A program made the translations under genes and the position numbers. DNA of 64,000 nucleotides from positions 55,995 through 119,994 of the forward strand of contig JBLMYT010000114.1 of assembly GCA_050258455.1 (NCBI GenBank), written 5' to 3'. Positions within the stretch are counted from its first letter, which is position 1. The number at the start of each line of letters is the position of its first letter. Below are positions 23,975-49,299 of the stretch, piece by piece. The notes below the pieces were generated by a model. The model was not told the DNA's origin. It saw only the letters and a list, made by a program, of their open reading frames with translations, and did no database searches. The DNA comes from Candidatus Omnitrophota bacterium (GTDB taxonomy: Bacteria; Acidobacteriota; Aminicenantia; UBA2199).

Positions 23975-24121
23975 TTATTTTAAAAGTGGGGACTATTGGT
24001 TTCATTTGAGCTCTCCCAAAACAAAGACAAAATTTAAATTTATGATAGACGTATAGAAGCGTTGGCAGAAGCTGCCATCGTTCAAACAATCGATTATTCA
24101 GACAAGATAAGGAGTGATACC

Positions 24122-27100
24122 ATGTACAGGAGTGGTCTATCCGATTTCGATCGGTTATGGATTGCTGCAGGAAAAAAGGCCAAAGAAAAACAATATTGGA
24201 CCGAAAAATTATCCGGAAAATTGTCAACCAGTCGTTTTCCATATTCTCATTTTCATAAAGACGTAATTACCGAAAACTTATATAGCCATTCGGTTTACCT
24301 CGGTTTTGATGAGCATATATCTTCGCAATTGGTAAAATGGAGTGCGAATTCCGATATCCGCCTTCACATTATATTAAGCGCCGTACTGACACTTTTACTC
24401 TCAAAATATACGGGTAATGAGGATATCATTATGGGTACGCCGGTTTCTCACGGAGGACACGGAGAAACAAATGAAGATGCGGCTGTTATCAATACGGTCT
24501 TGGCATTACGTCATCAACTGAATGGTGAAATGCCGTTCAAGGAATTGCTGTTCCAGGTCAGACAAACCATCATTGAAGCGGATGAAAACCAGAATTATCC
24601 GTTTGAAGTATTGGTCAGGCAATTGGAAACGCCGTTTTCAGAGGAGGGGTGTCCCCTTTTCGATGTCGCGGTGGTATTGGAAAACATTCAGAATAAAGAG
24701 CATCTTTCAGCAATTAATCCAAAAGTCATCTTTTCGTTTTTACGGATTGAAAAACATATTGAAGGCAAAATAATATATAACACGCATTTTTATCATCGGC
24801 AGATGATTGAACGCATTGCCCTTCATTTTGGGCATATTGTGGAAATCATATTATCCGATCCCAATAGGAAGATATCGGAGATCGAGGTCATCACCGAAAA
24901 TGAAAAGAGACAATTATTAAATGATTTTAACAATACGGCGGCGGAATATCCGAAAGATAAAACCATTCATGAATTATTTGAAGATCAGGCAGAGAAAACG
25001 CCGGATCATATAGCAGTTATAGGTTCAATTTCTGTGCGGGCGCTTCGCCAATTATCCCTACAAATTTCCTATCGACAACTGAATGAACGATCCGAACAAT
25101 TGGCGAATAAATTAATCCAAGAAAACGTTCAACCCGATATTATTGTGGGTATAAAGATCGGGCGCTCGGTTGAGATGATTATCGGAATTTTGGGAATATT
25201 AAAAGCAGGTGGCGCATATTTACCCATTGATCCGGATTACCCGCAGGAACGGATTGATTATATGGTAAAGGATAGTGGTGCGGCATTGTTGGTTACCACC
25301 AACCATGAAGAAGGTGAGAAGTTAAGAAGTTGGGAAGTTAAGAAAGTGCTCTTTTTAGATCCTCTTAATCTCTCAGCTTCTCAACCTCTTAACTTCTCTT
25401 TAAATTCCGTAGGGGCAGATCCGTGTATCTGCCCGAGTACTTCTCTATTACCGGTAATCGGTAACCGGCCACTGGCCACTTCTCTCGCTTATGTTATTTA
25501 TACCTCCGGTTCAACCGGAAGTCCCAAAGGAGTAATGGTCGAGCATCGAAACGTTATTCGTTTAGTGAAAAATACGAATTTCATTGATTTTCAACCCGAA
25601 GATCGATTATTACAAACCGGGGCATTGGCGTTTGATGCCTCCACGTTTGAAATATGGGGCGCGTTGTTAAATGGTCTTAGCCTTCATCTGATGGATAAAG
25701 AAGACGTATTGAACCCGGATAAATTAAAGAAGCGCATGATTGAGCATCAAATCACCATCATGTGGATGACATCCCCGTTCTTTAATCAGATGGTGCAAAG
25801 TAATGAAGAAATCTTTGGACCTCTTCGTTATTTATTGGTTGGGGGCGATGTCTTATCCCCGTCGCATATCGATCGGGTACGAAAGCGGTTTCCCGGTTTG
25901 AGGGTTGTTAATGGTTATGGGCCGACCGAGAATACGACTTTTTCCACCACGTTTTTGATCGATAAGGATGATGAGGAAAAGATTCCCATCGGTAAACCCA
26001 TTGCCAATTCAACCGCTTATGTTGTGGATAGACATGGAGCTCTGCAACCGGTCGGAATTGCCGGAGAATTGTGGGTTGGAGGGGACGGTGTATCCCGCGG
26101 GTATTTAAACAACCCGGAATTGACGGCCCAGAAATTTTCCTCTGTGCCCTCCGTGACCTCTGTGGCTAAAAATTTATACAAAACCGGGGACCTGTGCCAG
26201 TGGATGGAGGACGGCAATATCGAATTCTTGGGTCGCATCGATCAGCAGGTAAAGATCAGAGGATTTCGCATTGAATTGGAAGAAATCGAGCATCGATTAT
26301 TGAAGCATCCGGCCATTCAAGACGCTGTCATTGTTGTGAAACACGATAAATATAAAAACAAGTATCTCTGCGCTTATATTGTTTCAAAAGATCCCTGTGA
26401 TCCCGCCCAATTAAGAGAATACCTAATAAAATATTTACCGGATTACATGATCCCGTCCCATTTCGGGCTCATAGAGAAAATACCGCTAACTCCGAATGGT
26501 AAAGTCGACCGGAAAGCATTACCCGAAATAAAGGTGAAAACAGGCCCGGATTATGTTGGGGCCGGGGATACGATCGAAGAAAAATTGTCAGCCATATGGT
26601 CCGATGTTCTGGAAATCGAAAAAAACGCCATTGGGATTCATGACAATTTTTTCAATCTGGGTGGACATTCCTTAAAGGCCGTTCGATTAATTTCTGAAAT
26701 TCATAACCAACTAAGTGTCAAATTATCCCTAACGGAAATATTCGCCTTTCCAACGGTAAAGGATTTGGCCGGGTATATAAGGGGCGCGCGCAGAAATGAA
26801 TATGCAATGATCGAGACGGTGGAAGAAAGAGAATACTATGACGTGGCCCAGGCCCAGGAACGGTTATGGATATTGGATCAGGTCCAAACGGAACTGACCG
26901 CTTACAATATTCCCGGTTATGTGGTATTCGAAAATTTGAATCGCAACGCTCTTCAACAGGCATTCGAATCGTTAATAAAACGCCATGAAATTTTGAGGAC
27001 CACGTTTATCACCGTAAATGGGGAACTCAAACAAAAAGTGCATGATTTTAAAAATCATGATATCCGGATAAATTATCTCGATTTGAGAAGAGAAGAAAAA

Positions 27101-28213
27101 AGAGGAGCCATCGTTGAAAGCTTAAAAGAAAAAGAAATGAGTACACCGTTTAACCTGGAAAAAGGTCCCTTATTAAGGAGCACATTGCTCCATGTCGAAG
27201 ATCATCGGTATATATTTTTATATACCCTGCATCATATTATTTCGGATGGATGGTCGATGGATATCCTACAAACGGAATTTATGACCCTTTATCAAGCGTA
27301 TTGCAGCGGTCAAGAGAACCCCTTGCCACCCCTTCGGATTCAATACAAAGATTACACCTACTGGCAGATGAAGCAATTGGCCGGCGAAAACTTAAAAAAC
27401 CACGAAGATTATTGGTTGAACCGGTTTAATGGCGACCTACCGGTTCTGGAACTGCCCCTCGATTACCCTCGCTCGGAACTACGGTCATTTGCGGGCGAAT
27501 TTATCCTATTTTCGTTAAGTAAGGAAATGACCGGACACTTAAAACGGATGTGCAATGAATTGGGCACCACTCTGTTTATCATCTTGCTGGCAATGGTAAA
27601 GGTTTTCTTGTATCGATATACAGGCCAAACGGACATTATTGTTGGAACTCCGGTTGCCGGTAGAGACCATAAAGACCTGGAAAATCAAATCGGTTTTTAT
27701 GTAAACATGTTGGCATTAAGAAATCAACTAACCAAAGGTCAGAGTTTCAGAGACGTTTTGGAAATGGTTAAACGCAGTACCCTGGAAGCCTTTGAACACC
27801 AGGTCTATCCCTTTGACCGTCTGGTTCATGAGTTAAAGGCCGTAAAGGATCTGAGTCGTCATCCCTTGTTTGATGTGGTGGTAATTTTAAGAAACCCCAT
27901 GAACGCGCCGGAACAAGTAAACCTGAGGACATTGCCGGAAGCAAATAGAGACGACGAATGGGTTGAAAACGGAGTAGAGGCCAGTAAGTTTGATTTAGGC
28001 TTAGGCTTCACCGACCAGGGCGATCAAATCATTGCCCATTTCAGATACAATGCGCAATTATTTAAAAGAGAACGAATCATGCTTATACGGGAACGGTTTA
28101 TCGGGTTGATGACAGATATTGTTTCCCATCTGGATAAAGAAATAGATGACCTCATGTTTACGTCTGAAGCAGAGAAAGGAAAACCGAAAAACAAATTTAA
28201 AGGAGGATTTTAA
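24122..28213 (+). CDS. NRPS 1 (one module): orphan C-domain C-lobe, then A, PCP and a complete C domain
   Basis: The ATG at 24122 follows AAGGAG at 24108-24113. The A-domain cores present are A1 ISYRQLNERSEQLA, A2 LKAGGAYLPIDPDYP, A3 LAYVIYTSGSTGSPKGV, A5 NGYGPTE, A6 GELWVGGDGVSRGYL, A7 YKTGD, A8 GRIDQQVKIRGFRIELEEIE and A10 NGKVDRKALPE. The PCP motif is LGGHSLKAV. The C domain carries HHIISDGWS. The stop is 3 nt before NRPS 2. Confidence 0.9.
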   Translation: MYRSGLSDFDRLWIAAGKKAKEKQYWTEKLSGKLSTSRFPYSHFHKDVITENLYSHSVYLGFDEHISSQLVKWSANSDIRLHIILSAVLTLLLSKYTGNEDIIMGTPVSHGGHGETNEDAAVINTVLALRHQLNGEMPFKELLFQVRQTIIEADENQNYPFEVLVRQLETPFSEEGCPLFDVAVVLENIQNKEHLSAINPKVIFSFLRIEKHIEGKIIYNTHFYHRQMIERIALHFGHIVEIILSDPNRKISEIEVITENEKRQLLNDFNNTAAEYPKDKTIHELFEDQAEKTPDHIAVIGSISVRALRQLSLQISYRQLNERSEQLANKLIQENVQPDIIVGIKIGRSVEMIIGILGILKAGGAYLPIDPDYPQERIDYMVKDSGAALLVTTNHEEGEKLRSWEVKKVLFLDPLNLSASQPLNFSLNSVGADPCICPSTSLLPVIGNRPLATSLAYVIYTSGSTGSPKGVMVEHRNVIRLVKNTNFIDFQPEDRLLQTGALAFDASTFEIWGALLNGLSLHLMDKEDVLNPDKLKKRMIEHQITIMWMTSPFFNQMVQSNEEIFGPLRYLLVGGDVLSPSHIDRVRKRFPGLRVVNGYGPTENTTFSTTFLIDKDDEEKIPIGKPIANSTAYVVDRHGALQPVGIAGELWVGGDGVSRGYLNNPELTAQKFSSVPSVTSVAKNLYKTGDLCQWMEDGNIEFLGRIDQQVKIRGFRIELEEIEHRLLKHPAIQDAVIVVKHDKYKNKYLCAYIVSKDPCDPAQLREYLIKYLPDYMIPSHFGLIEKIPLTPNGKVDRKALPEIKVKTGPDYVGAGDTIEEKLSAIWSDVLEIEKNAIGIHDNFFNLGGHSLKAVRLISEIHNQLSVKLSLTEIFAFPTVKDLAGYIRGARRNEYAMIETVEEREYYDVAQAQERLWILDQVQTELTAYNIPGYVVFENLNRNALQQAFESLIKRHEILRTTFITVNGELKQKVHDFKNHDIRINYLDLRREEKRGAIVESLKEKEMSTPFNLEKGPLLRSTLLHVEDHRYIFLYTLHHIISDGWSMDILQTEFMTLYQAYCSGQENPLPPLRIQYKDYTYWQMKQLAGENLKNHEDYWLNRFNGDLPVLELPLDYPRSELRSFAGEFILFSLSKEMTGHLKRMCNELGTTLFIILLAMVKVFLYRYTGQTDIIVGTPVAGRDHKDLENQIGFYVNMLALRNQLTKGQSFRDVLEMVKRSTLEAFEHQVYPFDRLVHELKAVKDLSRHPLFDVVVILRNPMNAPEQVNLRTLPEANRDDEWVENGVEASKFDLGLGFTDQGDQIIAHFRYNAQLFKRERIMLIRERFIGLMTDIVSHLDKEIDDLMFTSEAEKGKPKNKFKGGF
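25321..25440. repeat. MITE/REP-like element embedded in frame in the NRPS-1 A-domain A2-A3 loop. The left end GTTAAGAAGTTGGGAAGTTAAGAAAG is identical to 36739-36764, and the internal palindrome GTAGGGGCAGATCCGTGTATCTGCCC is at 25409-25434.
   Basis: The left terminus is an identical 26-mer shared with the second copy. Imperfect terminal inverted repeats are present (GAAGTTAAGAA ... TCTTAACTTC). The encoded peptide, LRSWEVKKVLFLDPLNLSASQPLNFSLNSVGADPCICPSTSLL, is low-complexity and unlike canonical A-domain sequence. Confidence 0.55.
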
Positions 28214-28216
28214 TCA

Positions 28217-31200
28217 ATGGCGGTCGACATCCACACCCTCGCTCTATACAACACATGTGAGGATTATTGGCTTAAAACACTGAATGGCGTAACGCTTACC
28301 CCTATTTTTGGGGATCAAAGTAATAACGGTATTAGCACCCGCGATTCATGGCGTGTGGCATTTCCTCCCGGCCTGTCAGATTCTATTCACTCCATGGTCC
28401 GGGGGGAAGATACCAATGCTTTTTTGATTTTTCTTACAGCGTTTAATATTTTAATATATAAATATACCCACGCGGATGATATATTAATCCATACCCCGGA
28501 TTTCCGGGATGAAGAATCTAAAAATTCCGAAGATGCAATGCTTTTCTTCCGTACCCATCCGGGTGAGGATCAAATCATTCGTGATTTATTAAACCAATTC
28601 CTTTCCGAATTAAACGGGGCCTATGAAAATCATCAATTCCTTTATGAATCATTGCTCAGACGTTTTAATGATAACCAAAATGGAGACGTTAACGCCTTAT
28701 CCGCTTTTGGTTTGCGGTATAACCGATTTAATCTGGAAAGCTTGCGGATGGAAGCAAGTCATTTGTTTTTTTCAATCGAGCAACGCGATCATGGCATCGA
28801 TCTTTTGATTCACTATCATACCTGTTCCTACACCTCGGATCAAATTGCTCAATTGGCACGGCATTATATCCATATCTTGGCCTCGATGGTGTCAAATTTG
28901 GACACCCCGCTTCATGCCATCGGTATATTTTCGCCGGAGGACAAACAAAAATTAATGGAGTTTATCGGAGAAGAAATCGAGGCCCCGGAGGAGGGGAAAA
29001 CATTTTTGGCCCGATTCGAACGCCAGGTTGAAGACTCGCCCCAATCTCCCGCCTTAGCCTGCGGGCCCGTGACATTGAGTTACCGGGCGTTAAATGAAAG
29101 GGCCAATCAACTGGCCCGACGATTACGTCACGAGGCTCCCCTCGCCAACGATGATTCCGTGGCCCTGGTGATGGACCGATCCCCAAAGATGGTGGAGAGC
29201 ATTCTGGCCGTATGGAAATGCGGGGCCGCTTATATCCCCATCGATCCGTCGTATCCCCAGGAGCGAATCGACACGATTATCAACGACTCCGGCGCCAAAT
29301 TGATGATTCGTGAAACGGGTAATATTTCATTTAAAGTGGAACAAACCCTGAAACCGGCAACCAGGGTCATTTACCTGGATCAAATCGAAAATGACCGCTT
29401 ACATGAGGATAAGACCAACCTTTGCGTTCCCCGACATCCCGGGGATCTGGCTTATATTATTTATACATCAGGCTCCACGGGTAAACCCAAAGGCGTCATG
29501 ATCGAACAGCGAGGCATGATGAATCATCTTCATGCCAAGATTTCGGAAATCCAAATCGATGCGACAAGCGTGATTGCTCAAAATGCCTCACACTGTTTCG
29601 ATATCTCCGTCTGGCAATTTTTCGCTGCCCTGTTGGTCGGCGGTAAAACAATTATTTATTCTGACCAGGCCGTGTTAAACCCCACGGCGTTTACCCGACA
29701 GTTGGCTGAGGATGGGGTTAATATATTGGAGGTCGTGCCATCCTATTTGTCAGTAATATTAGATCTAATCGAAGATCAGCAGACAGGCGATGCACTCGCC
29801 GGGTGTCGCTGCTTGTTGGTCACGGGCGAAAGCGTGAAGCCCGGCCTCGTGAACCGGTGGTTCAAAACATTTCCGGGTATACGAATGGTGAATGCTTATG
29901 GCCCCACCGAAGCATCCGACGACATCACCCATTTCGTGATGGACCGGTTCCCCGGGACCGGAAATATCCCAATCGGTAAAACGCTTCGTAACTTTCGTAT
30001 TTACATCGTAAATTCGCGTATGGAGCTATGTCCCGTCGGTGTGAAAGGTGAAATTCTCGTATCGGGACTCGGCGTCGGACGGGGGTATCTGAATGACATA
30101 AAAAAGACCACGGACGCCTTTATGGAAGATCCCTTTCGGCCGGAACGGGGTTTTCGGTTGTACAAAACCGGTGATATCGGACGCTATTTACCTGACGGCA
30201 ATATCGAATTTTTTGGCAGAAAAGATTACCAGGTGAAAGTCCGGGGTTATCGAATCGAGCTCGAAGAGATCGAGAATAAATTATCCCGCCTTGACGGAAT
30301 CCGGGATGCGGCAGTCGTTGAGAAAGACAGTAAAAATAAAGGCGACGGCATGTATTTGTGCGCTTATATCACGCTGCGCGATGGCGTCCGGACACGGACG
30401 GAAGAGATTAAAACCGAATTGGCCCGGACGCTTCCCCATTACATGATCCCGGCCTTTATTGTTGTGCTCGACGCCTTGCCATTGACCCCCAACGGCAAAT
30501 TGGACCGCAAGGCATTACCGGATCCGGATGAATCCGGAATCGGGGACGTCGCGTATGTGGCGCCCCGCAATGCCATTGAAATCAAGTTGGCGGAGATATG
30601 GCGACAGGTCATCGGAGTGGAGCAGATCGGCATTCACGATAACTTTTTTGCGTTGGGAGGAAATTCATTACTGGGAATTCGGATTGTGAACAAAATTCAG
30701 GAATGGTTGCACGAAACCGTTCATGTCACCATCCTCTTTTTGGCCCCGACGATTGAGCAGTTGGCGGTGAAACTGGAGAGTTACCGGCAGGAAAAAGAGA
30801 CCCGAATCAATGAGGCGGATATCGCGGAACTTCGGTCTCTCATGCCTCCCTTGCCCCCTCTGCCTTCCCATTTGGTTCGCCCGGGTAAAACCCCTCCGGT
30901 CCTGTTCATTTTGTGTCCGCCCCGGTCCGGTTCCACGTTGTTAAGGGTTATATTGGCCGGCCATCCCGGGTTATTTGCGCCACAGGAGTTGCAATTGCTG
31001 TCCTTCAATACGCTGACGGAGCGAAAAGCGGCCCTTTCCGGGACCTACAGCCTTTACCTGGAGGGAGTGATCCGGGCCATCATGGAGATGAAGGCGATTG
31101 GTGCGGACCAGGCCAAACAGATCATGGAAGCATTTGAAGCCCAGGGGATGACGGTGCAGGAGTTTTACGGCATCCTTCAGCATTGGCTGGGGGAAACGAT

Positions 31201-34200
31201 GCTGGTAGAGAAAACCCCGCAATATGCTTACGATATCAATGTCCTGCAACGGGCGGAAGCGTATTTTGATTCCGCCCTTTACATTCATCTGGTTCGAAAC
31301 CCCTATGCGGTGATTCATTCGTACGAAAACGCGCGGTTGGACCAATTGTTTGAATATCCCCACCGTTTTTCGACTCGGGAATTGGCCGAATTGTTGTGGG
31401 TCATTTGCAACCAGAATATCTTGCAGTTCCTGGAGACAATCCCTGCCGGACGGAAATACCGGATGGAGTATGAAGAATTGGTTGGAAACCCGGAATCGGT
31501 GGTATCCCGCATGTGCGAGCACTTCGGTTTGGAATTTGACCGGGGAATGCTGGATGTATATGATGATGCCGGCCACCGGATGACGGACGGTATCTATGCC
31601 GAATCAAAGATGCTCGGAGATGTCAAATTCTTCAGCCATACGTCCATTGACACGACGTCCGTGGAGAAGTGGAAGGAGAAATATACAACCGAATTTTTGG
31701 GACAAACCGCCGTGGATTTGGCGAAATATTTTGGGTATTTGAGGGGACGCCATGAATACCCGACGATTGAACCGGCACCTGAGAAAGAGTATTATGAATT
31801 ATCGCCAGCCCAAAGACGATTATGGTTATTGGACCGGCTGGTGGAGAACCAGATTGCCTATAACATGCCGGGGGCCTATTGGGTGGAAGGGAATTTACAC
31901 ATCGATGTATTGGAAAAATCGTATGCGGCAGCAATTAAGCGACATGAAATATTGAGAACCACGTTTGTATCCGTGGAAGGCCCCCCCCGGCAAAAAATTC
32001 ACGCTTTTGAAGCGATGGGGTACCGGTTGGATTATCTGGATCTAAGAACGGATCCGGGTCGGGAAGAAACGGCAGCGTATCTGATCCGGGAAGAAGCCGC
32101 CAAACCGTTCAATCTGGAACAGGGACCTTTAATCCGGACCCGGTTGATTCATATGGATGCCAATCGGTATATATTTTTATTTAACATGCATCACATTATT
32201 TCGGATGGGTGGTCGATGCATGGATTAATGAAGGAAATCATCGCATATTATGACGCCTATGCCACGAACAGTGCGGAGTCTCTTGAGCCGTTGCGATTGC
32301 AATATAAAGATTATTCGGAGTGGATGACTCGTGAATCCACGCAGCGGGTCCTTCAACAACAGGAAAAATATTGGCTCGACCAATTTGCAGAAGACATCCC
32401 GGTCTTAAGTTTACCCACCGATTACGCGCGACCGGCAATCATGAGTTTTGAAGGACATACTGTCAACTTTGATTTTACGGCCCAGGAAACAGGGGAATTG
32501 ACCAAAGTGGCCCGGTCCGAGGGAGTTACTTTATTTATTTTATTAATTTCCATTTTCAATGTATTTTTGTCTAAAGTCAGCGGTGAGGAGGATATAATTA
32601 TCGGAACGCCCGTTGCTGGCCGGAATCATCCGGATCTGGAACACATCCTTGGGATGTTTGTCAACACATTGGCGCTGCGCAACTATCCTCGGGGAGAAAT
32701 GACCTTTATCCGGTTTCTTCATCACCTGAAAACCCTGATGTTAGAGGCCTTTGAGAATCAGGATTACCCCTTTGAAACCCTGGTTGAAAAATTGGAAATA
32801 ACGCGCGACACGAGTCGTAATCCACTCTTCGACGTCATGTTTACCATTCAGGATATTTATGAATCGGACAGGGGCTTGAATCAATTCAGCGACCTGAAAA
32901 TAAAACCCTATGCCTTCGACCATCGAATATCCAAATTTGATTTGTTACTCGCCACATTTGAAACCGATGGAAGGGTCTGTTTTGTCTTTGAGTATTGTAC
33001 GGCGTTGTTCCGGGAGGGCACCATCCAAAGATTTATTCAGTACGTGAAAGCCATTGCCCGGTCGATTATTCAAGACCCTGCGATCCGAATATCCGATATG
33101 GAGATCATAACCCCGGAGGAAAAGCGACAAATTATTTCGGATTTTAATCGTACGCAAGCTGCTTATCCATCGGATAAAACGATCGAAATGTTGTTTGAAG
33201 ACCAGGTGAAAAAAACGCCTGATTGCATTGCGGTTATCGGTTCCACGGTATCGCTCCCCAAACCCGTAGAAACGTTGTGTACAGCGTTCCTTCACCTAAC
33301 GTATAAAGAATTGAATGAACGATCCGATCGATTGGCGTATGAATTAATACAAAAAGGCGTTGAGCCGGATGCCATTGTCGGCATAAAAATCGAACGTTCC
33401 ATTCAAATGATTATCGGGATTTTTGCCATTTTGAAAGCAGGTGGCGCTTATCTTCCCATCGATCCGGATTACCCCCAGGAACGCATCGAATACATGTTAA
33501 AGGATAGCCAGGCGCATTTATTGGTAACTCATTGTTTAGGGGCAGCCCCATGCATTGGCCCGGGTGTTATTAACCCGGAACTTCCCTCCGTACCCGCTGT
33601 GTCCGCCGTGAGAGAAAAATCAAATCTTGCCTATGTCATTTACACTTCCGGTTCAACGGGAATGCCCAAAGGGGTCGTGGTCAAAAGGGAAGGATTTTTA
33701 AATTTACTCTATTGGTACATCAACGAATTTAATATAAATCCAAACGATAACGTTTTACTCATTGCATCGGTGAGTTTTGATTTGGCGCAAAAAAACGTAT
33801 TTAGTTCTTTTATGGTCGGCGGATGTTTGACTTTAGCCTCCCCTGGGCTCCCGGATTATTCAACGCTCTCGAAGCTTATCCAAAAAGCGCCAATCACCCT
33901 GATCAATTGTGCGCCCAGTGTCTTTTATCCATTGGTAGAATTTAATCGGAATTCGGGTTTTACGGATTTAAACACATTGCGATGGGTCATTCTCGGTGGT
34001 GAACCGATTTTAATCGAAAAGCTTTTACCCTGGATGGATTCCGAATCGTATCGATGTCAGATTGCCAACACGTATGGGCCGACCGAATGCACAGACATTG
34101 CCTCTTGTTACCGCATTCCCAATGAAAAAATTCGGGATTTAAAATCAATACCCATCGGAAAACCCGTTTCCAATGTAGCGGTTTATATATTGGGTAAATA

Positions 34201-37200
34201 CCGGGAGATACTCCCGGTGGGTGTGGTCGGGGAATTGTATATCGGGGGGATCGGGGTATCCCAGGGGTATTATAACAACAGGCAATTAACGGAGGAGAAA
34301 TTTTTGGAATTATCCCATTTACCGGAATCGAAAATATACCGGACCGGGGATATGGGGCGATGGTTGGACGATGGAAATATTGAGTTTTTAGGGCGAGTCG
34401 ATGATCAGGTTAAAATAAATGGCATGAGAATCGAGCTGGGAGAAATCGAGCATGTATTGTTGAGTCATAACGAGATTAAGGATGCGGTTGTTATTGTCCA
34501 TAAAAAAGAAAAGACGGATTACTATTTATGTGCCTACATCATTTCGCATAAGAATTTATCGATAGCAGATATACAGGAATATTTATCGTATCGTTTACCT
34601 CAATATATGATACCAACCCACTTTATTCAGCTCGAGCACATACCGTTAACACCCAGTGGAAAAGTAGATAAACGGTCTTTGCCTGATCCTGAAATGGGGT
34701 CTACACGGTCGTACATTGCGCCCGAAAATGCAGTGGAAAAAGAAATGGTGAAAATTTGGGCAGAAGTTCTGGGAATGGCAAAAGATCGAATCAGTATGGA
34801 TGATAATTTTTTCCAATTGGGGGGACATTCTATAAAAGCATCGTTATTGGTATCCCAAATTCGTAAAGCATTTGATGTGAATATTTCACTATCGGATATA
34901 TTCCGGATTTCCACGGTTCGGGGATTATCTCATCAAATTAAAGGATCGGTTAAGGAAAAATACCTTTCGATACCCCCTGCTGAGAAGAAAGAATACTATG
35001 AGTTATCTTCGGCACAAAGGCGCTTATACATTTTACACCAGATGGATGAAAAGGGGATCAATTACAATATTTCGTCTGTGTTTCTATTGGAAGGGGAGAT
35101 TGATAAAGATAGATTTGAGGGGACGTTTAGGCAGCTTATCGATCGGCATGAGAGTTTGCGAACATCATTTCCGATGGTCGGTAATGAACCGATGCAGCGA
35201 ATTCATGATGATGTTGAATTTGAAATTAATTATTTAGCCACAGAGTTCACAGGGGACACAGAGGGGGAAGGGAAGAAGGTAAGTGGAATAGAGAATTTTA
35301 TTAAATTTTTCGATTTATCTAAAGCGCCATTGATGCGTGTGGAATTGATGAGAGTCGACGATAACACGCATCTTCTTGCAGTGGGCATGCATCATATTAT
35401 TTCGGATGGAACTTCCATGAATATTGTGGTGCAAGATTTCATGGCGTTTTATAAGGGTGAAGAATTGCCGGAAGTACAAATTCAGTATAGGGATTTTTCA
35501 GAGTGGCAGAAACGGGAAAATCAAAAAGAATTGCGAAAGCAGCAAGAGGCGTTCTGGTTAAACGAATTTGAAGGGGAAATACCGGTATTGGATCTTCCGG
35601 CGGATTTTTTAAGGCCTTCGATTCAGAGTTTTGAAGGAAGACGGGTCCAATTTGAACTGGATAAAGAAACCACCGGATTATTGAAAGCGTTGGCGTTGGA
35701 GACTGGTGCCACTTTATATATGATGCTTTTGGCTTTATACAACGTGTTTTTATCTAAAATCTGTAATCAGGAGGATATTGTTATCGGTTCGCCGATTGCG
35801 GGGAGAAGTCATTCTGATTTAGAGAAAGTTGTCGGAATGTTTGTCAATACATTGGCCTTACGGAATTATCCGATAGGAGAAAAAGTATTTACTGATTTTT
35901 TGGAGGAAGTAAAAGGAAACATCTTAAGAGATTTTGAAAATCAGGAATATCCTTATGAAGAATTGGTGGAACGGGTGTTGGTAAACAGGGACACCGGTCG
36001 GAATCCGTTATTTGACACCATGTTTGTGTTACAGAATGCGGATATGCAATCGTTGGCGATTCCCGGACTGGTATTAACTCCTTATGAATATGAGAATCAC
36101 GTATCCAAGTTTGATTTGACATTATCCGCAATAGAAAAAGAAGATCGTTTATGTTTTACATTTGAATACAGCACGAAGCTATTTAAGCGTGAAACGATTG
36201 AGCGATTCATTTCATATTTTAAGAACATCGTTAACGGTGTTATTGAGAATAGAGCTCGAACCCTTTCGAATTTTGAGATTATTACGGAAGAAGAGAAGAA
36301 TCATCTGTTATATGATTTTAATCATACAGAGGTCGAATATACGAAAGATAAGACCATTCAACAATTATTTGAAGAGCGGGCATGCCGGGGATGGGATAGG
36401 ATTGCATTGGTCGGCGCTATTTCCGGTATAGGGGCAGCCTCAGGTGTCTGCCCTCAATTATCTTACGCTGAATTGAATGAACGATCGAATCGATTCGCCT
36501 ATGAGTTAATCCAAAAAGGCGTTGGACCCGATGTGATTGTGGGGATAAAAATCGAACGGTCTATTGAAATGATCATCGGTATTCTGGGAGTTTTGAAAGC
36601 CGGCGGCGCGTATTTACCGATTGACCCCGGTTTGCCGCAGGAACGGGTCGATTATATGTTAAATGATAGTAGAGCTAAATTTATTTTTCTCACGGAGCAC
36701 ACAGGGGACACGGGGGGGAGTGGTGTAGAAGTTGAGACGTTAAGAAGTTGGGAAGTTAAGAAAGCGGTCTTTTTAGATCCTTTTAACCTCTCAGTTTGTC
36801 CAGCGGGCGCACACACGGGTGCGCCCCTACGTAATTCCGAATCAATTTCCCTTTTAGATCAACTTAACCTCTCATCTTCTCAACCTCTTAACTTCTTCCC
36901 TTCCTCCGTGCCCCCCGTGTCCTCCGTGAGAAATCATTCAAATCTTGCTTATATCATTTACACATCCGGTTCCACCGGGAAACCTAAAGGCGTATTCATT
37001 CGCCATTCGAATATCTGTCCGTTGCTGCATTGGGGATACGAGCATTTGGCGTTGACGAGCGATGACCGTTCGGTTCAGAATTTATCCTATTATTTCGATT
37101 GGTCCGTATGGGAGATATTTATTGCATTAACGTCCGGGGCCGGTCTTCACATGGTATCCAATGAACTGATCATGGATGGGGTGAGTTATGCCGATTACAT

Positions 37201-39744: not shown

Positions 39745-41433
39745 ATGAAAACGTTCAAGGACAGCAAAATACTTTTGGTGTTACTGCCTTTTTGGACCCC
39801 TTTGATTCCCCCTCCGGGAATCGCCGGTCTTAAAAGTTTTCTTCAGGGATACGGCTTTCGCGTCAAAGCCGTGGATGCCAACATCGAACCCGAATTTAAA
39901 TACATACACGATAAATATTTTGATACCTTAAGAGCCATGCTTCCCGAAGATAAATGGGGAAATTTTTTCAAGGTGGGTTATGAAGTATTACGAAATCATC
40001 TGATGGCTCATATCAATCATACCGAGCCCGGGCAATATATCGCGTTGGTCAAATTGTTGATATATCGAAATTATTACGTCAATGTGAACGATCATCAGGT
40101 GTTTGGATTAAATGGAATCCTGGATGAATTTTATGCCCGGCTGGAAACGTATGTTTCGGGCCTATTGGAAAAGGAGACGCCTGATGTATTGGGGGTATCG
40201 ACCACAGTCGGAACGCTCCCGGCCACGATGGTTGCCTGTGAAGTTACCAAACGGAAGTACCCCCACATCATGACGGTAATGGGCGGGTGTCTCTTTTCCT
40301 GGAGTTTGCATCAATCGCCTGACTTTGATGTTTTATTGGAAAAAGTTCCTTATATCGATAAAATTATTATTGGGGAAGGGGAGCAGTTGTTCTTGAAATT
40401 ACTTCAAGGCGAGCTCCCGGCATCTCAACGGGTGTATTCCCTTCAAGACATCGATGGAAAAGAACTGGACATTTCCCAGGCCACGATTCCCGATCTTTCG
40501 GACTTCGATTTGCAGGCCTATCCCTACCTGGTGGCTTCCGGCTCCATCGGATGTTCGTTTCAATGCGGCTTTTGTAATTTCCCCTCGTTGTATGGAAAAT
40601 ACAGAAAAAAAGAGGCCAAACGGATTGTTGACGAAATGACTGCGTTATACAGGGCCTATAAGTCTCAGATCTTTTTTATGAGCGATTTACTCATAAATCC
40701 GATTTTGCCTGAACTGTCAACTGAATTACTCAAATCCGAACGCATGTTTTATTGGGATGTGCATATGCGGTTGGATGAGCCCGTGACCAATCCGGAAAAT
40801 ACCCTCTTGTGGCGGCGTGCCGGTTTGTATCGGGCCCGGTTGGGGTTGGAGAGCGGGTCGCAGCGCGTGCTGAATTTGATGAATAAAAAGATTACCGTGG
40901 ACCAGGCCAAGGCCGCCATATCCAGCCTGGCGTATGCAGGGATCAAAACCTCGGTGTTCATCGTGGTAGGGTTTCCCGGGGAAACCGAAGCGGATTTCCA
41001 ACAAACCCTGGATTTTATCGAAGAAATGAAGCATGATATCTGGCACGTGGAAAGCACCCCGTTTCAGTATTTTTATACGGGCCAGGTCGAAGCCGACGAG
41101 TGGGCCAGGCACCGGAAACTCCTCTATCCCGCCGAATTCCGGGATATGTTGGTGACTCAAACCTGGATATTGGACTGCGAACCAACCCAGGAAGACACGT
41201 ATGACCGGGTCAATCGATTGGAAAAACATCTGCACCGATTGAATATACCCGATCCTTTTTCGTCCTTAGAGAATCATTACTACGCCGATGAACGTTGGAA
41301 ACGGCTTCATGAAAACGCTGTGCCTTCACTGGTGGAGTTTAAGAGTAATGACGACGTGGATGAGAAGAACAACATTAAGACATTGATCCTGGCGGAGAAA
41401 AAAACGCAGGAAAATGCAGCGTTTCGTTTTTAA
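39745..41433 (+). CDS. B12-binding radical SAM enzyme (class B radical SAM, probable methyltransferase)
   Basis: The N-terminal cobalamin-binding Rossmann domain is ILLVLLPFWTPLIPPPGIAGLKSFL ... IIIGEGEQLF. The radical SAM cluster motif is CSFQCGFC (CxxxCxxC). The RBS is AAGGAG. The protein is 562 aa. Confidence 0.85.
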   Translation: MKTFKDSKILLVLLPFWTPLIPPPGIAGLKSFLQGYGFRVKAVDANIEPEFKYIHDKYFDTLRAMLPEDKWGNFFKVGYEVLRNHLMAHINHTEPGQYIALVKLLIYRNYYVNVNDHQVFGLNGILDEFYARLETYVSGLLEKETPDVLGVSTTVGTLPATMVACEVTKRKYPHIMTVMGGCLFSWSLHQSPDFDVLLEKVPYIDKIIIGEGEQLFLKLLQGELPASQRVYSLQDIDGKELDISQATIPDLSDFDLQAYPYLVASGSIGCSFQCGFCNFPSLYGKYRKKEAKRIVDEMTALYRAYKSQIFFMSDLLINPILPELSTELLKSERMFYWDVHMRLDEPVTNPENTLLWRRAGLYRARLGLESGSQRVLNLMNKKITVDQAKAAISSLAYAGIKTSVFIVVGFPGETEADFQQTLDFIEEMKHDIWHVESTPFQYFYTGQVEADEWARHRKLLYPAEFRDMLVTQTWILDCEPTQEDTYDRVNRLEKHLHRLNIPDPFSSLENHYYADERWKRLHENAVPSLVEFKSNDDVDEKNNIKTLILAEKKTQENAAFRF

Positions 41434-41457: not shown

Positions 41458-44400
41458 ATGAAGAATCAACGCCATCATGAGCTTGGAAATGTCGTGCTTG
41501 CAGCAAGACAATCGGAAAAAGAAAGAACGTACTGGAAAAATAAACTGGCGGGCGAATTACATCCCGGTCATTTTCCGTTTGATAAAAAACCAATGGGCCA
41601 TGTCCCCCGCCATCGGGATACCGTCCCATTTGAGATCGATGGGGACGTGTTCGCGAAACTCACCTGGATCATCAATGGGGCCGACACCTTACTCCATGTT
41701 ATTTTATGTTCGGTCGTGAAGGTATTACTTCATAAATATACAGGTAATACAGATATGATTATCGGTACACCGATTTATAAACAGGATATCGCAGGCGATT
41801 TTGTGAATACTATCTTGATTTTAAGAAATAAACTCGAAACGGCTATGAGTTTTAAGGACTTCTTGTTTCAGGTTAGAGACAGTCTTAATGAAGCCGTGGA
41901 GCATCAGAATTATCCGGTCGAAGGGATCTTCTATGACCTGGGGTTGCCCTACAACAGGGAGGACTGCCACTTGTTCGATACGGTGGTGATTCTGGAAAAT
42001 ATTCAAGCCTCCCACTATATCGACCACGTCAACCGGAATATTCTCTTCTCCTTTTTGCGGACCGATGGCGGGATGAACGGAACCATCGAATATAACACGA
42101 CCCTGTTTGAACGCCACACCATCGAGCGCATCCTGACCAGTCTCTTATTTATCATGCGCCAGGTCCTGTTTAATGTCACCATACCGTTGGATCAGGTGGA
42201 TGCCCTGACCGAAGACGAGAAGAAAACGCTATTAAGGGATTTCAATGGTCATGAAATCCAATATCCGAAGGAAAAAACGCTCCAGGATTTGTTTGAAGCG
42301 CAGGTCGAGACATCTCCGGACCGGGTCGCCGTGGTATACGACGGGCAAACATTAACGTACCGGGAATTGAACCGGAGGGCCAACCGTCTGGCCTGGTTAT
42401 TGAGGCATCAGCGGGTTGGCCCCAACGCTGTGGTCGGATTGATCAGCGAGCGGTCGTTAAATATGATTATCGGAATATGGGGGATTTTGAAATCCGGTGC
42501 TGCGTATTTACCCATTGACCCCTTATCGCCCACCAACCGCCTAATGGCCTTGGTACGGGACAGCGAGCCGTCTCATTTGGTTTTAACCGATAAGACGGTG
42601 GAACGACATTCGTACATGGCTTTCTTAAATCAGGATTTGGCCCATGTCAAGTTCATCAAAACGCCGCCCCGGCCGCCCATCGGCGAATTGGATATGCTGC
42701 CGTTCCCGGATCGTTCCCTGGTGGATTATGAGGTTTACAACCGGTATATTGGGCAGGCATTGGCCAAAAATAAAATGGTTCTTCAGGGATCCCGTGGGTG
42801 CCCGTTTAATTGTGCCTTTTGTCATAAGATATGGCCCAAAAAGCAAGTGAGCCGGTCCGCCGAAAATATCTTTGCGGAAATGCGCGTGTATTATGACATG
42901 GGGGTTCGCCGATTCGCTTTTGTGGATGACATATTTAATTTAAATATCGCTAATACATCGAGGCTATTCGACATGCTCATCGATCATCAGTTGAAGGTGG
43001 AATTATTCCTCGCGTTACGCGGGGATATCTTAACTCCCGAGTACATCGACCTCATGGTTCGAGCAGGGGCCGTGCGGATTACCATGTCACTGGAAACCGC
43101 CTCCGAACGCCTTCAAACCCTCATCGGCAAAAAGCTAAACCTTGACCGATTCCGGAAAAATATCGAGTACGTGTGTGAAAAGTACCCTCATGTTATCCTG
43201 GAGCTCAATACCCTGCATGGCATCCCGACCGAAACTCCCGAGGAAGCCCGCATGACCCTGGACTTTATTAAAGGGTTGAAGTGGCTCCATTTCCCCTATG
43301 TCCATGTCTTGAAAATTTATCAGAATACCGACATGGAAAAGATTGCCCTGCGAAGCGGTATTTCAAAAGAGGCCATTATCAGATCCGAAAATCTCGCCTA
43401 CCATGAGCTTCCGGAGACACTCCCGTTCGACAAAACGTTCTCGAAAAATTACCAGGCGGATTTTTTCAATAATTATTTCATGTCCAAAGAGCGTCTCCTC
43501 CGGGTGTTACCCTTCCAGATGAAGATTTTAACCGAAGACGAAATCGTACAGAAATACGACAGCTATGTGCCGGCGGATATTCATTCGCTTGACGATTTAT
43601 TGGCATATGCCGGCATTCGGAGAGACGAGTTGTCCATAACCCAATGTCGATCGGAAGAGCAAATCGCGATCCCGGATTTTAATCAAAAACTTCGGGCGGC
43701 TTTTCCTAAAACACCCCCCGCGGATTCGGCACAGGAATTGAAAATTTTACTCCTGGATTTATCCCAATTATTTACCGCCAATAAAAAGATGCTGTACGAT
43801 ATATTCGAGCCGCCGCTCGGGTTAATGAATTTATTGAGTTACGCGAGCCATCGATTGCCCGGTAAAATTAACGGGAAAATCGCAAAATCCCGGGTTGATT
43901 TTAATAATTACCGGGAGTTAAAAGCCCTTCTCGATGAATTTAAACCCGATGTTATCGGAGTTCGAACACTGAGTTTTTTCAAAGATTTTTTTCATCAAAC
44001 CATTGGGTTGATTCGTCAATGGGGAATTCAAACGCCAATTATTGCCGGAGGGCCTTACGTCACGAGTGATTATTTAACCATTCTGGCTGATCCGAATATC
44101 GATTTAATGGTCATTGGGGAGGGGGAGCTCACGTTCTGTGAGGTGATCGAGCGAATCATGGCCAATAACGGCCAGTTACCCGGACCTGAGGCGTTGCACC
44201 AAATCCCCGGGATCGTGTTTGCCACTCGGAGCGACAAAAACCAAACGGCCAGTCGCCCGCTTATTCAGATGGACGAAGTCATGAGATATACCCCGGATAT
44301 CCCGGATCATAATCCCCCGAGCATCAATCGGCCCGACGATCTATCCTATGTCATTTTTACTTCCGGCTCTACCGGTAAGCCCAAAGGCGTTAAGATCAGA

Positions 44401-49279: not shown

Positions 49280-49299
49280 GTTTGAAGAGGAGAAGCGGC

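What the first reader, a model, noticed from the sequence alone, without database searches (positions are those of the whole stretch)
30880..31750. PAPS-type sulfotransferase domain embedded in-line in NRPS 2, between the first PCP and the next C domain
A domain of about 290 aa lies between PCP1 (LGGNSLLG) and the second module's C domain. It carries sulfotransferase hallmarks: the 5'-PSB motif ILCPPRSGSTLL and the 3'-PB-like motif RNPYAVIHS, and its overall similarity is to the CurM/OLS-type ST family. In known assembly lines the ST domain is terminal and pairs with a TE (ST-TE), which gives decarboxylative alkene formation. Here it is internal to an NRPS with no adjacent TE. That implies on-line O- or N-sulfation of the module-1 aminoacyl/peptidyl intermediate.
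Basis: partly seen in the sequence, partly recalled or inferred. Interest (0 to 1): 0.75.

Follow-up and report, generated by a model that had tools for sequence, protein, structure and literature searches.

The report
Sulfotransferase domain inside a peptide synthetase
A complete sulfate-transferring enzyme domain sits inside a peptide assembly-line protein, directly after the module predicted to load the diamino acid Dab. It belongs to a large, mostly unstudied group of such built-in domains, and here it probably puts a sulfo group on an amine rather than on a hydroxyl.

Summary
ORF2 (28217-39709, +, 3830 aa) is an uninterrupted NRPS: C-remnant, A1, PCP1, ST, C2, A2, PCP2, C3, A3, PCP3, C4. 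Residues 886-1180 (nt 30872-31756) are a full CurM/OLS-type PAPS sulfotransferase domain. Support: Pfam Sulfotransfer_3 E=4e-28; CurM ST 4GBM E=4e-61; AF2 model TM 0.86-0.93. All PAPS-binding residues and the putative catalytic residues are kept.

In-line NRPS ST domains are published for OciA and DysB. My survey finds A-PCP-ST-C to be the commonest context among more than 1,100 family clusters.

In relatives, the A domain just before the ST mostly encodes Ser, Thr, Tyr or Hse (36/49 versus 5/67 elsewhere). Here A1 carries the exact 2,4-diaminobutyrate code DIWELTADDK. That pairing is conserved in the closest relatives, which form their own ST clade. No hydroxylase is in the cluster.

Best reading: in-cis sulfonation of PCP1-tethered Dab on its side-chain amine, giving a sulfamate. 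That acceptor is inferred, not shown.

Verdict: a new variant of a known kind, of moderate interest.

The parts
28217..39709 (+). ORF2, a 3830-aa NRPS: C-terminal-half C remnant (aa 1-265), A1, PCP1, ST, C2, A2, PCP2, C3, A3, PCP3, C4
   Evidence: ORF list and translation; Pfam; domain mapping by phmmer with the window's own domains
29012..30511 (+). A1 adenylation domain (aa 266-765). Its specificity code is DIWELTADDK, the 2,4-diaminobutyrate (Dab) code.
   Evidence: GrsA-anchored alignment. The code matches 'Dab(2)' 10/10; that code is listed for 20 characterised domains including PvdL in Table S21 of PMC12283262.
30572..30796 (+). PCP1 carrier domain (aa 786-860). The phosphopantetheine-attachment Ser817 lies in LGGNSLLG (nt 30665-30667).
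   Evidence: Pfam PP-binding
30797..30871 (+). Pro-rich linker of 25 aa between PCP1 and the ST
   Evidence: Translation; domain limits
30872..31756 (+). CurM/OLS-type PAPS sulfotransferase domain (aa 886-1180)
   Evidence: Pfam PF13469 E=4.3e-28. PDB 4GBM E=3.9e-61 and 4GOX E=5.4e-59. AF2 pLDDT 90.4. Foldseek TM 0.86/0.93 to 4GBM.
30920..30937 (+). 5'-phosphosulfate-binding loop PRSGST (aa 902-907)
   Evidence: Aligned with PRSGST of CurM and OLS. R903, S904, G905 and T907 are nearly invariant in 68 homologues.
30986..30988 (+). E924, equivalent to the proposed catalytic base Glu60 of CurM ST. Q926 (nt 30992-30994) replaces CurM His62.
   Evidence: Alignments. E924 is nearly invariant. The role of Glu60 comes from my memory of McCarthy 2012.
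31211..31213 (+). K999 in VEKTP. It is an invariant Lys, equivalent to the Lys of CurM VDKSP.
   Evidence: Invariant column K118 in alignment A2
31295..31321 (+). 3'-phosphate-binding stretch RNPYAVIHS (R1027 to S1035)
   Evidence: R146 and S154 are invariant in alignment A2. The stretch aligns to RHPYSVIES of CurM.
31772..33136 (+). C2 condensation domain (HHIISDG present). It receives the PCP1-bound intermediate.
24062..28213 (+). ORF1, the upstream NRPS: C remnant, A (code DAFWLGGTFK, Val-like), PCP, full C. It supplies the donor for condensation onto PCP1-bound Dab.

Best explanation
Nucleotides 30872-31756 encode a complete and apparently active PAPS-dependent sulfotransferase domain of the CurM/OLS family. 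It is fused in cis between PCP1 and C2 of a three-module NRPS.

It belongs to a large, essentially uncharacterised class of NRPS-embedded ST domains. These sit directly behind the carrier domain of the module whose residue they modify.

Proposed working cycle:
1. A1 loads L-2,4-diaminobutyrate onto PCP1.
2. The C domain at the end of ORF1 couples the upstream Val-like residue to it. This may happen before or after step 3.
3. The phosphopantetheine arm delivers the tethered (Val-)Dab thioester to the ST. With E924 as general base and K999, R903, R1027 and S1035 holding PAPS, the ST transfers SO3 to the only side-chain nucleophile available, the gamma-amino group of Dab. The product is a sulfamate (N-sulfo-Dab).
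4. C2 passes the sulfonated intermediate on to module 2 (homoserine-like code).

What is shown: the domain's identity, fold and position, the conservation of its residues, the Dab code, and the conservation of the Dab-ST pairing.

What is inferred: that the ST acts on the PCP1-bound intermediate, that the acceptor is the Dab amine, and that the sulfo group stays in the product.
For: Identity and fold:
- Pfam Sulfotransfer_3 hit; CurM ST E=3.9e-61.
- AF2 pLDDT 90.4 and TM 0.86-0.93 to 4GBM and 4GOX.
- K999, R1027 and S1035 are invariant, and R903, S904, G905, T907 and E924 nearly invariant, in 68 homologues.

Position rule in relatives:
- The ST always directly follows a PCP.
- The A domain in front of it carries Ser, Thr, Tyr or Hse codes in 36/49 cases, against 5/67 for other A domains in the same proteins (Fisher p=6e-14). 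Code assignments are checked against Tables S16-S18 of PMC12283262.
- The ST therefore modifies the side chain loaded by its own module.

Dab pairing:
- A1 = DIWELTADDK, an exact match to the Dab code.
- The same code precedes the ST in the syntenic orthologue L079 (ST 67% identical, whole protein 51%) and in P0121.
- These STs form one clade together with P0382 (DIWEITADDK).
- Dab/Dap-type codes precede 10 of 113 STs among the cluster representatives, in several ST lineages. Lys-like codes occur too.
- A1-PCP1-ST is a compositional block: GC3 0.57-0.63 against 0.31-0.55 elsewhere in ORF2.
- The clade has its own substitutions next to the catalytic motifs: PQE, VEKTP, RNPY, KFF.

Cluster content and precedent:
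- No oxygenase or hydroxylase is found in the cluster, 24062-50241.
- N-sulfonation of a PCP-tethered diamino acid has a precedent in SulN acting on Dap in sulfazecin biosynthesis (PMC11298585).
Against: - No member of the CurM/OLS family is known to N-sulfonate. Characterised members act on hydroxyl groups.
- The acceptor is deduced from a specificity code, not measured.
- Several Dab/Dap-coupled STs elsewhere sit next to Ser-coupled STs in the tree (for example P0482). The ST sequence therefore does not cleanly track the acceptor.
- About a quarter of STs follow modules with hydrophobic or Gly codes. The rule that the ST modifies its own module's side chain is therefore not universal, and acceptors could lie elsewhere on the chain.
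- A hydroxylase encoded outside the cluster cannot be excluded.
- The co-occurrence statistics are not corrected for shared ancestry.
- The representative list is ranked by similarity to this Dab-coupled ST.
- No PAPS-supply genes are found in the window.
Confidence: 0.5

Rival explanations
1. The domain makes an ordinary sulfate ester. The real acceptor is a hydroxyl group. Either A1 loads, or a trans-acting oxygenase creates, a hydroxylated Dab (for example 3-hydroxy-Dab) on PCP1, or the acceptor is a hydroxyl elsewhere on the PCP1-bound chain. The ST O-sulfonates it, as its Ser-, Thr- and Tyr-coupled relatives presumably do.
For: - All characterised family members are O-sulfotransferases (CurM, OLS; OciA and DysB give sulfated glyceric acid).
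- 72% of relatives follow hydroxy-amino-acid modules.
- A beta-OH-Dab-activating domain exists with a related code, DVWQMIGDDK.
Against: - A1's code matches plain Dab 10/10, not the beta-OH-Dab code.
- No hydroxylase is in the cluster. The MBL-fold gene resembles B1 beta-lactamases and SoxH-like Zn hydrolases, not diiron hydroxylases.
- The only upstream residue has a Val-like code.
Confidence: 0.2
2. The sulfonation is an activating step. The sulfo group is installed as a leaving group, as in CurM/OLS, and is lost again in an elimination or cyclisation (dehydro-amino acid, aziridine or another ring). The final product would carry no sulfur.
For: - The domain is 38-40% identical to the two 'activating' STs.
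- The flap region of low model confidence (model residues 231-260) is present.
- Many relatives follow Ser or Thr modules, whose codes also serve Dha and Dhb modules.
- A-PCP-ST-TE termini after Ser or Thr are common (27 cases).
Against: - This needs an O-sulfate. A sulfamate on the Dab amine is a poor leaving group.
- There is no hydroxyl on the predicted substrate.
- No TE is adjacent.
- Published in-line NRPS STs (OciA, DysB) keep the sulfate in the product.
Confidence: 0.1
3. The ST acts on the next module. It O-sulfonates the homoserine-like residue on PCP2 rather than the PCP1-bound intermediate.
For: The A2 code DLKNIGTDIK matches the Hse code DLKNLGTDVK at 8 of 10 positions, with conservative changes at the other two. 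Hse has a free hydroxyl. A Hse-like code directly precedes an ST in L049, P0408 and P0492.
Against: - In every surveyed relative the hydroxy-amino-acid module is upstream of the ST, not downstream.
- The orthologue L079 keeps Dab-PCP-ST-C, but its downstream module has a Val-like code.
Confidence: 0.08
4. The domain is a catalytically dead relic, kept only as a structural spacer.
For: There is no direct evidence of activity. The CurM His62 equivalent is Gln.
Against: - All PAPS-binding and proposed catalytic residues are kept, and they are invariant or nearly so across 68 homologues.
- The model is confident and complete.
- The domain is retained at 61-67% identity in orthologues.
- The His62 position is variable throughout the family.
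Confidence: 0.04

Closest known systems
CurM ST and olefin synthase (OLS) ST domains (PDB 4GBM, 4GOX): the ACP-ST-TE terminating tridomain of cyanobacterial PKSs
   Same: - Same protein family and fold: E=1e-59 to 1e-61, 38-40% identity, TM 0.83-0.93.
- Same PAPS-binding motifs and conserved Glu.
- Fused in cis directly after a carrier domain.
   Different: - Here the host is an NRPS and the position is internal (PCP-ST-C), with no TE.
- The predicted substrate is an aminoacyl or peptidyl thioester of Dab, not a beta-hydroxyacyl chain.
- No decarboxylative olefin formation is possible.
- CurM and OLS are an outgroup to the large NRPS-embedded clade.
In-line ST domains of the cyanobacterial NRPSs OciA (cyanopeptolin/oscillapeptin) and DysB (dysinosin)
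   Same: - An ST embedded inside an NRPS, followed by a C domain rather than a TE.
- The sulfate is retained in the product (PMC2533009, PMC6520454).
- The corresponding Nostoc-type loci (FkbM-FkbH-PCP-ST-C) fall inside the same ST family tree.
   Different: - Those STs follow an FkbH glycerate-loading unit and make an O-sulfated glyceric acid starter.
- Here the ST follows a standard A-PCP module with a Dab code in an elongation position.
- The window's ST lies in a separate clade.
SulN, the sulfotransferase of sulfazecin (monobactam) biosynthesis
   Same: PAPS-dependent sulfonation of the side-chain amine of a diamino acid while the peptide is tethered to an NRPS carrier domain (PMC11298585). 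The Dap code of the sulfazecin NRPS (DVWEMNADDK) is close to the Dab code found here.
   Different: - SulN is a separate protein acting in trans on a C-terminal Dap.
- Its sulfamate is used by a Cys-TE to close a beta-lactam.
- Here the ST is in cis and the Dab is internal (module 2 of 5).
- The cluster's TE has a Ser nucleophile, GWSLGG.
- Sequence relatedness to SulN was not tested.

Membership tests
CurM/OLS-type assembly-line sulfotransferase domain (Pfam Sulfotransfer_3; PDB 4GBM/4GOX) | Significant sequence similarity to the CurM and OLS ST domains | tested here: met
   phmmer E=3.9e-61 and 5.4e-59; 40% and 38% identity; PF13469 E=4.3e-28, above the cutoff
CurM/OLS-type assembly-line sulfotransferase domain (Pfam Sulfotransfer_3; PDB 4GBM/4GOX) | Same three-dimensional fold, including the flexible active-site flap | tested here: met
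   AF2 pLDDT 90.4 and pTM 0.89. Foldseek TM 0.86/0.93 (4GBM) and 0.83/0.92 (4GOX); the next-best matches, TPSTs, reach about 0.55. The only internal low-confidence stretch (model residues 231-260) coincides with the flap region. The flap's location is from my memory of McCarthy 2012.
CurM/OLS-type assembly-line sulfotransferase domain (Pfam Sulfotransfer_3; PDB 4GBM/4GOX) | PAPS-binding residues (5'-PSB loop PRSGST, Lys of VDKxP, 3'-PB Arg and Ser) and the proposed catalytic Glu | tested here: met
   R903, S904, G905, T907, E924, K999, R1027 and S1035 are all present and invariant or nearly invariant in 68 homologues. PAPS binding itself was not measured.
CurM/OLS-type assembly-line sulfotransferase domain (Pfam Sulfotransfer_3; PDB 4GBM/4GOX) | Fused directly downstream of a carrier domain in a megasynthase | tested here: met
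   PCP1 (aa 786-860), then a 25-aa linker, then the ST (aa 886-1180)
'Activating' ST of the ACP-ST-TE olefin-forming termination module | ST followed by a TE, a beta-hydroxyacyl-ACP substrate made by a KS-AT-KR module, and decarboxylative loss of sulfate | tested here: not met
   The ST is followed by a C domain. No TE is nearby. The upstream module is A-PCP with a Dab code. No PKS domains are present.
OciA/DysB-type in-line NRPS ST (sulfated glyceric acid starter) | PCP-ST-C arrangement inside an NRPS | tested here: met
   The same arrangement is found in Nostoc-type loci.
OciA/DysB-type in-line NRPS ST (sulfated glyceric acid starter) | An FkbH-like glycerate-loading domain (with or without a methyltransferase) upstream of the PCP-ST pair | tested here: not met
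   The window has a canonical A domain upstream. FkbH (TIGR01686, E=4e-95) and FkbM are found in the cyanobacterial relative L027 but not here.
SulN-like N-sulfonation of a carrier-tethered diamino acid | The substrate is a PCP-bound peptide ending in a diamino acid (Dap or Dab) | tested here: inconclusive
   The A1 code matches Dab exactly, but loading was not measured.
SulN-like N-sulfonation of a carrier-tethered diamino acid | Formation of a sulfamate (an N-S bond) | not testable with these tools
   This needs a PAPS assay with mass spectrometry or NMR.
SulN-like N-sulfonation of a carrier-tethered diamino acid | A discrete trans-acting enzyme coupled to a Cys-TE that closes a lactam | tested here: not met
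   The ST is in cis, the Dab is internal, and the terminal TE has the Ser motif GWSLGG.

The most novel reading that the evidence does not exclude
The Dab-coupled clade of NRPS-embedded CurM-type ST domains (window, L079, P0121, P0382) may be assembly-line N-sulfotransferases that convert carrier-tethered 2,4-diaminobutyrate into a sulfamate. That would be the first in-cis N-sulfonating tailoring domain of an NRPS and a new reaction type for this family. The sulfamate might mask the Dab amine during chain extension, or prime a later heterocyclisation, by analogy with monobactam formation.
Probability: 0.4. Interest if true: 0.7.

Novelty: new variant of a known kind. Interest (0 to 1): 0.55.

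Why it matters
Sulfonated non-ribosomal peptides are rare in the known chemical record. Yet this ST family has more than 1,100 clusters at 50% identity, and A-PCP-ST-C or A-PCP-ST-TE inside NRPSs is its most common context. These NRPSs come from Acidobacteriota, Chloroflexota, cyanobacteria and other mostly uncultivated lineages. None with an amino-acid module upstream appears in the literature I could search.

If the Dab-coupled clade makes sulfamates, it would add a new on-line tailoring reaction to NRPS logic. It would also supply a portable A-PCP-ST unit for engineering. It would further point to unrecognised N-sulfonated peptides in uncultivated bacteria; NCBI labels the source MAG of this window Candidatus Omnitrophota.

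The hypothesis is directly testable with one excised tridomain.

Tried and rejected
Literature and database look-ups that gave nothing:
- McCarthy et al. 2012 (PMC3528841) and Rounge et al. 2007 (PMC2168201) are not held. The catalytic-residue roles and the exact OciA domain order therefore rest on my memory and on secondary papers.
- A full-text search for DIWELTADDK found nothing. The code was found only in a supplementary table.
- The genome-contig scan did not find the source genome; the best ST identity was 56%.
- The look-up of encoding contigs had no record for the window's NuoF.
- Four literature searches for amino-acid-coupled NRPS ST domains, for ST-mediated dehydro-amino-acid formation, or for Dab sulfamates returned only the cyanobacterial glycerate cases and SulN.

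Hypotheses tested and dropped:
- The MBL-fold gene (48245-49279) as a CmlA-like beta-hydroxylase that could give the ST an OH to act on. Rejected: its closest matches are B1 metallo-beta-lactamases and SoxH-related Zn hydrolases.
- A sulfazecin-like Cys-TE lactam-forming logic. Rejected: the TE has GWSLGG and the Dab is internal.
- C domains that follow an ST forming a special functional class. Nearest-neighbour analysis gave 48/62, but orthology confounds it, so it is inconclusive.
- Strict co-evolution of ST clade with Dab code. Only partly true: the window's clade is uniformly Dab-coded, but other Dab/Dap-coupled STs scatter among Ser- and Thr-coupled ones.

Full report
**1.
The window carries one uninterrupted ORF at 28217-39709 (+), 3830 aa. 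Pfam finds four Condensation, three AMP-binding and three PP-binding stretches. It also finds one Sulfotransfer_3 hit at aa 894-1108 (E=4.3e-28, above the gathering score) and a weaker Sulfotransfer_1 hit.

Mapping with the window's own domains gives this order: C-terminal-half C remnant (1-265), A1 (266-765), PCP1 (786-860), ST (886-1180), C2 (1186-1640), A2, PCP2, C3, A3, PCP3, C4.

**2. It is a CurM/OLS-type sulfotransferase, and it looks functional.**
- phmmer against all PDB sequences gives CurM ST (4GBM) E=3.9e-61 and OLS ST (4GOX) E=5.4e-59. The next hits are tyrosylprotein sulfotransferases at E of about 1e-3.
- BLASTP identity is 40% and 38%.
- An AlphaFold2 model built on 68 homologues has mean pLDDT 90.4 and pTM 0.89.
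- The model superposes on 4GBM and 4GOX with TM 0.86/0.93 and 0.83/0.92.
- Its only internal soft region (model residues 231-260) corresponds to what I recall as the dynamic flap of this family.

Conservation in the 68-sequence alignment:

| Status | Residues |
|---|---|
| Invariant | K999 (VEKTP), R1027 and S1035 (RNPYAVIHS) |
| At least 90% conserved | R903, S904, G905 and T907 (PRSGST loop), E924 |

E924 aligns with CurM Glu60, the proposed catalytic base. That role is from my memory of McCarthy et al. 2012, which is not held. CurM His62 is Gln926 here, but that column is E, D, H, Y or Q across the family, so this is not a defect.

**3. Genomic context.**
The biosynthetic cluster spans about 24062-50241:
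- ORF1: C remnant, A (Val-like code DAFWLGGTFK), PCP, C.
- ORF2: as described in section 1.
- A stand-alone B12-radical-SAM gene.
- ORF4: a terminal module whose A domain is interrupted by a radical-SAM/B12 unit and a ThiF-like domain, followed by PCP and TE.
- An MBL-fold gene.
- A homocysteine-S-methyltransferase-like gene.

The flanks are housekeeping genes: type IV pilus genes, RadC and a histidine kinase upstream, and the nuo operon downstream. No oxygenase, no Dab-synthesis gene and no PAPS-supply gene lies in the cluster.

The window's NuoF is 100% identical to a protein that NCBI labels 'MAG: Candidatus Omnitrophota bacterium'.

**4. The architecture is not unprecedented.**
Published cases:
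- The cyanopeptolin synthetase OciA has a sulfotransferase domain together with a glyceric-acid-loading domain (PMC2533009).
- DysB of the dysinosin pathway has 'an unusual sulfotransferase domain' with FkbH and methyltransferase domains, matching sulfated glyceric acid (PMC6520454).
- A 2025 paper notes that ST-containing homologues without a TE probably give sulfated products (PMC11730487).

My own survey:
- A scan of one genome per GTDB species found at least 541 loci encoding relatives.
- In the 78 best loci the ST is almost always inside an NRPS. The forms are C-A-PCP-ST-C, A-PCP-ST-TE, or A-PCP-ST at a protein end. Some proteins carry two STs.
- The hosts are Acidobacteriota (Thermoanaerobaculia, Blastocatellia, Pyrinomonadaceae, Holophagales), Chloroflexota, cyanobacteria, and also Delftia and Comamonadaceae.
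- An exhaustive HMMER search of 1.84 billion cluster representatives gives 1,117 representatives at E<=1e-30.
- Among the best 150, the contexts are A-PCP-ST-C 70, A-PCP-ST-end 30 and A-PCP-ST-TE 27.
- The cyanobacterial clade has FkbM-FkbH-PCP-ST-C (TIGR01686 E=4e-95). This is the published OciA/DysB type.
- CurM and OLS fall outside the NRPS-embedded clade.

**5. What the ST acts on in relatives.**
I extracted the ten specificity-code residues of every A domain by alignment to GrsA.

| A-domain position (GTDB loci) | Ser, Thr, Tyr or Hse code | Other code |
|---|---|---|
| Directly before PCP-ST | 36 | 13 |
| Elsewhere in the same proteins | 5 | 67 |

Fisher p=6e-14. The test is not corrected for shared ancestry. 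The codes were checked against the published tables: Thr DFWN[IV]GMVHK, Ser DVWH.SL[IV]DK, Tyr DA[AS]T[VI]AAVCK, Hse DLKN[VL]G[ST]DVK.

The simplest reading is that the ST modifies the side chain of the residue loaded by its own module while that residue hangs on the adjacent PCP. About a quarter of cases have hydrophobic, Gly, His or Lys-like codes. The rule is therefore strong but not absolute.

**6. What is special here.**
- A1 has the code DIWELTADDK. This is an exact match to 'Dab(2)' in Table S21 of PMC12283262, a code listed for 20 characterised 2,4-diaminobutyrate domains including PvdL. Dap codes are close relatives: DIWEVTADDK, DIWEATMDDK, and DVWEMNADDK in the sulfazecin NRPS.
- The pairing is conserved. 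A 211-kb metagenome contig (L079) carries a colinear orthologue (51% identity over 2,800 aa, ST 67%) with the same code before the ST. Its downstream module differs: Val-like in L079 against Hse-like here.
- P0121 (ST 66% identical, A-PCP-ST-C) has the same code.
- In NJ trees the window, L079, P0121, P0126, P0001 and P0382 (DIWEITADDK) group together.
- Among cluster representatives, Dab/Dap-type codes precede 10 of 113 STs and appear in several ST lineages. Four or five further STs follow Lys-like codes.
- The A1-PCP1-ST stretch stands out compositionally (GC 0.51, GC3 0.57-0.63, against GC3 0.31-0.55 elsewhere in ORF2). This suggests that the tridomain moved as a unit.
- The clade has its own substitutions right next to the catalytic motifs: P923Q before the Glu, D998E before the Lys, H1028N after the 3'-PB Arg, W947Y and H1139F. 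The cofactor residues themselves are kept.

**7. Mechanism proposed.**
Dab has no hydroxyl group. The upstream residue is Val-like, and the cluster encodes no hydroxylase. The MBL-fold protein resembles B1 beta-lactamases and SoxH-like hydrolases, not diiron hydroxylases.

The most economical model is PAPS-dependent transfer of SO3 to the gamma-amine of PCP1-tethered Dab or Val-Dab. This gives a sulfamate, which C2 then passes on.

There is a chemical precedent for N-sulfonating a carrier-tethered diamino acid. SulN acts on the Dap of the PCP-bound sulfazecin tripeptide (PMC11298585). The sulfazecin follow-up step, a Cys-TE closing a lactam, does not apply here: the Dab is internal and the TE has a Ser nucleophile.

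My confidence levels:

| Claim | Confidence |
|---|---|
| Domain identity | about 0.97 |
| Action on the PCP1-bound intermediate | about 0.75 |
| N-sulfonation of Dab | about 0.45 |

Whether the sulfo group stays in the product, or serves as a transient mask of the amine, is open.

**8. Rival explanations.**
- O-sulfonation of a hydroxylated Dab or another hydroxyl, with the hydroxylase encoded elsewhere (about 0.2).
- Activating sulfonation followed by elimination or cyclisation, as in CurM. This is attractive for the many Ser- and Thr-coupled relatives and for the A-PCP-ST-TE termini, but it needs an O-sulfate (about 0.1 for this locus).
- Action on the downstream Hse-like residue. The orthologue L079 and the upstream rule argue against it (about 0.08).
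- A dead relic. Residue conservation argues against it (about 0.04).

**9. Verdict.**
- Already known: CurM-type STs, and in-line NRPS STs on glycerate starters.
- Apparently not described in the literature I could search (subscription journals are largely missing): the very large class of STs coupled to ordinary amino-acid modules, and within it a Dab-coupled clade that implies amine sulfonation.

I rate it a new variant of a known kind, of moderate interest.

Noticed in passing
window 41458-48195 (+), ORF4: The terminal NRPS module has a doubly interrupted A domain. A radical-SAM domain (aa 445-604) plus a B12-binding domain (aa 822-896) are inserted after the N-terminal part of the A domain. 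A ThiF/E1-like domain (aa 1389-1615) and a degenerate A-like piece lie before PCP-TE. The A code is DAKDVGVDVK. A radical SAM enzyme fused inside an A domain looks unusual and may deserve its own study.
   Followed up: partly
window 39745-41433 (+): A stand-alone B12-binding radical SAM gene lies between ORF2 and ORF4. Its best NCBIfam matches are the PhpK-family and RiPP C-methyltransferase models, both below cutoff. It recalls DscE, the B12-rSAM that C-methylates Val in the discodermin NRPS pathway (PMC12858407).
   Followed up: partly
window 48245-49279 (+): An MBL-fold protein sits directly after the TE-containing NRPS. It most resembles subclass B1 metallo-beta-lactamases (BcII E about 1e-14) and SoxH-related Zn hydrolases, with all family cutoffs missed. 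It could be a resistance or product-processing hydrolase.
   Followed up: partly
window 49282-50241 (+): A homocysteine S-methyltransferase-like gene (Pfam S-methyl_trans) is the last gene of the cluster. Its role is unknown.
   Followed up: no
window 29012-31756: The A1-PCP1-ST block is a compositional island inside ORF2: GC 0.51 and GC3 0.57-0.63, against GC3 0.31-0.55 for the other domains. This suggests that the tridomain was acquired by recombination as one unit.
   Followed up: partly
window 33197-34696 (A2 of ORF2): The A2 code DLKNIGTDIK is close to the published homoserine codes DLKNLGTDVK and DLKNVGSDVK. A3 has the unassigned code DWWHCGMIMK. The predicted peptide is Val-Dab-Hse-X-Y.
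   Followed up: partly
window 24062-24920, 28217-29011 and 41458-42240: Each of the three NRPS ORFs begins with a C-terminal-half C-domain remnant lacking the HHxxxDG motif. This holds even though the ORFs preceding ORF2 and ORF4 end in a complete C domain.
   Followed up: no
loci L016, L022, L042, L044, L045, L049, L054, L056, L067, L068; also L020, L032, L043, L047, L048, L055, L057: Many relatives end in A(Ser, Thr or other)-PCP-ST-TE inside pure NRPSs. By analogy with CurM, this could give decarboxylative elimination to terminal enamides. Several proteins carry two ST domains. None appears to be characterised.
   Followed up: no
proteins P0137, P0141, P0156, P0212, P0225, P0239 and others: Free-standing A-PCP-ST tridomain proteins of about 960-1010 aa are common. 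Their codes are Ser, His (DSALIAEVWK) or Gly-like. ACP-ST didomain proteins of about 430 aa are common in cyanobacteria and Thiothrix.
   Followed up: no
window 60295-61587 (-): NuoF is 100% identical to an NCBI protein from 'MAG: Candidatus Omnitrophota bacterium' (121-kb contig). The next-best hit is only 68% identical, so the source is a deep-branching uncultivated lineage. The closest NRPS fragments are labelled Candidatus Deferrimicrobium.
   Followed up: partly
window 30971-31576 (-): A 201-aa antisense ORF (GTG start) lies wholly inside the ST-coding region. It is most likely a by-product of the higher GC content there and not a gene.
   Followed up: no
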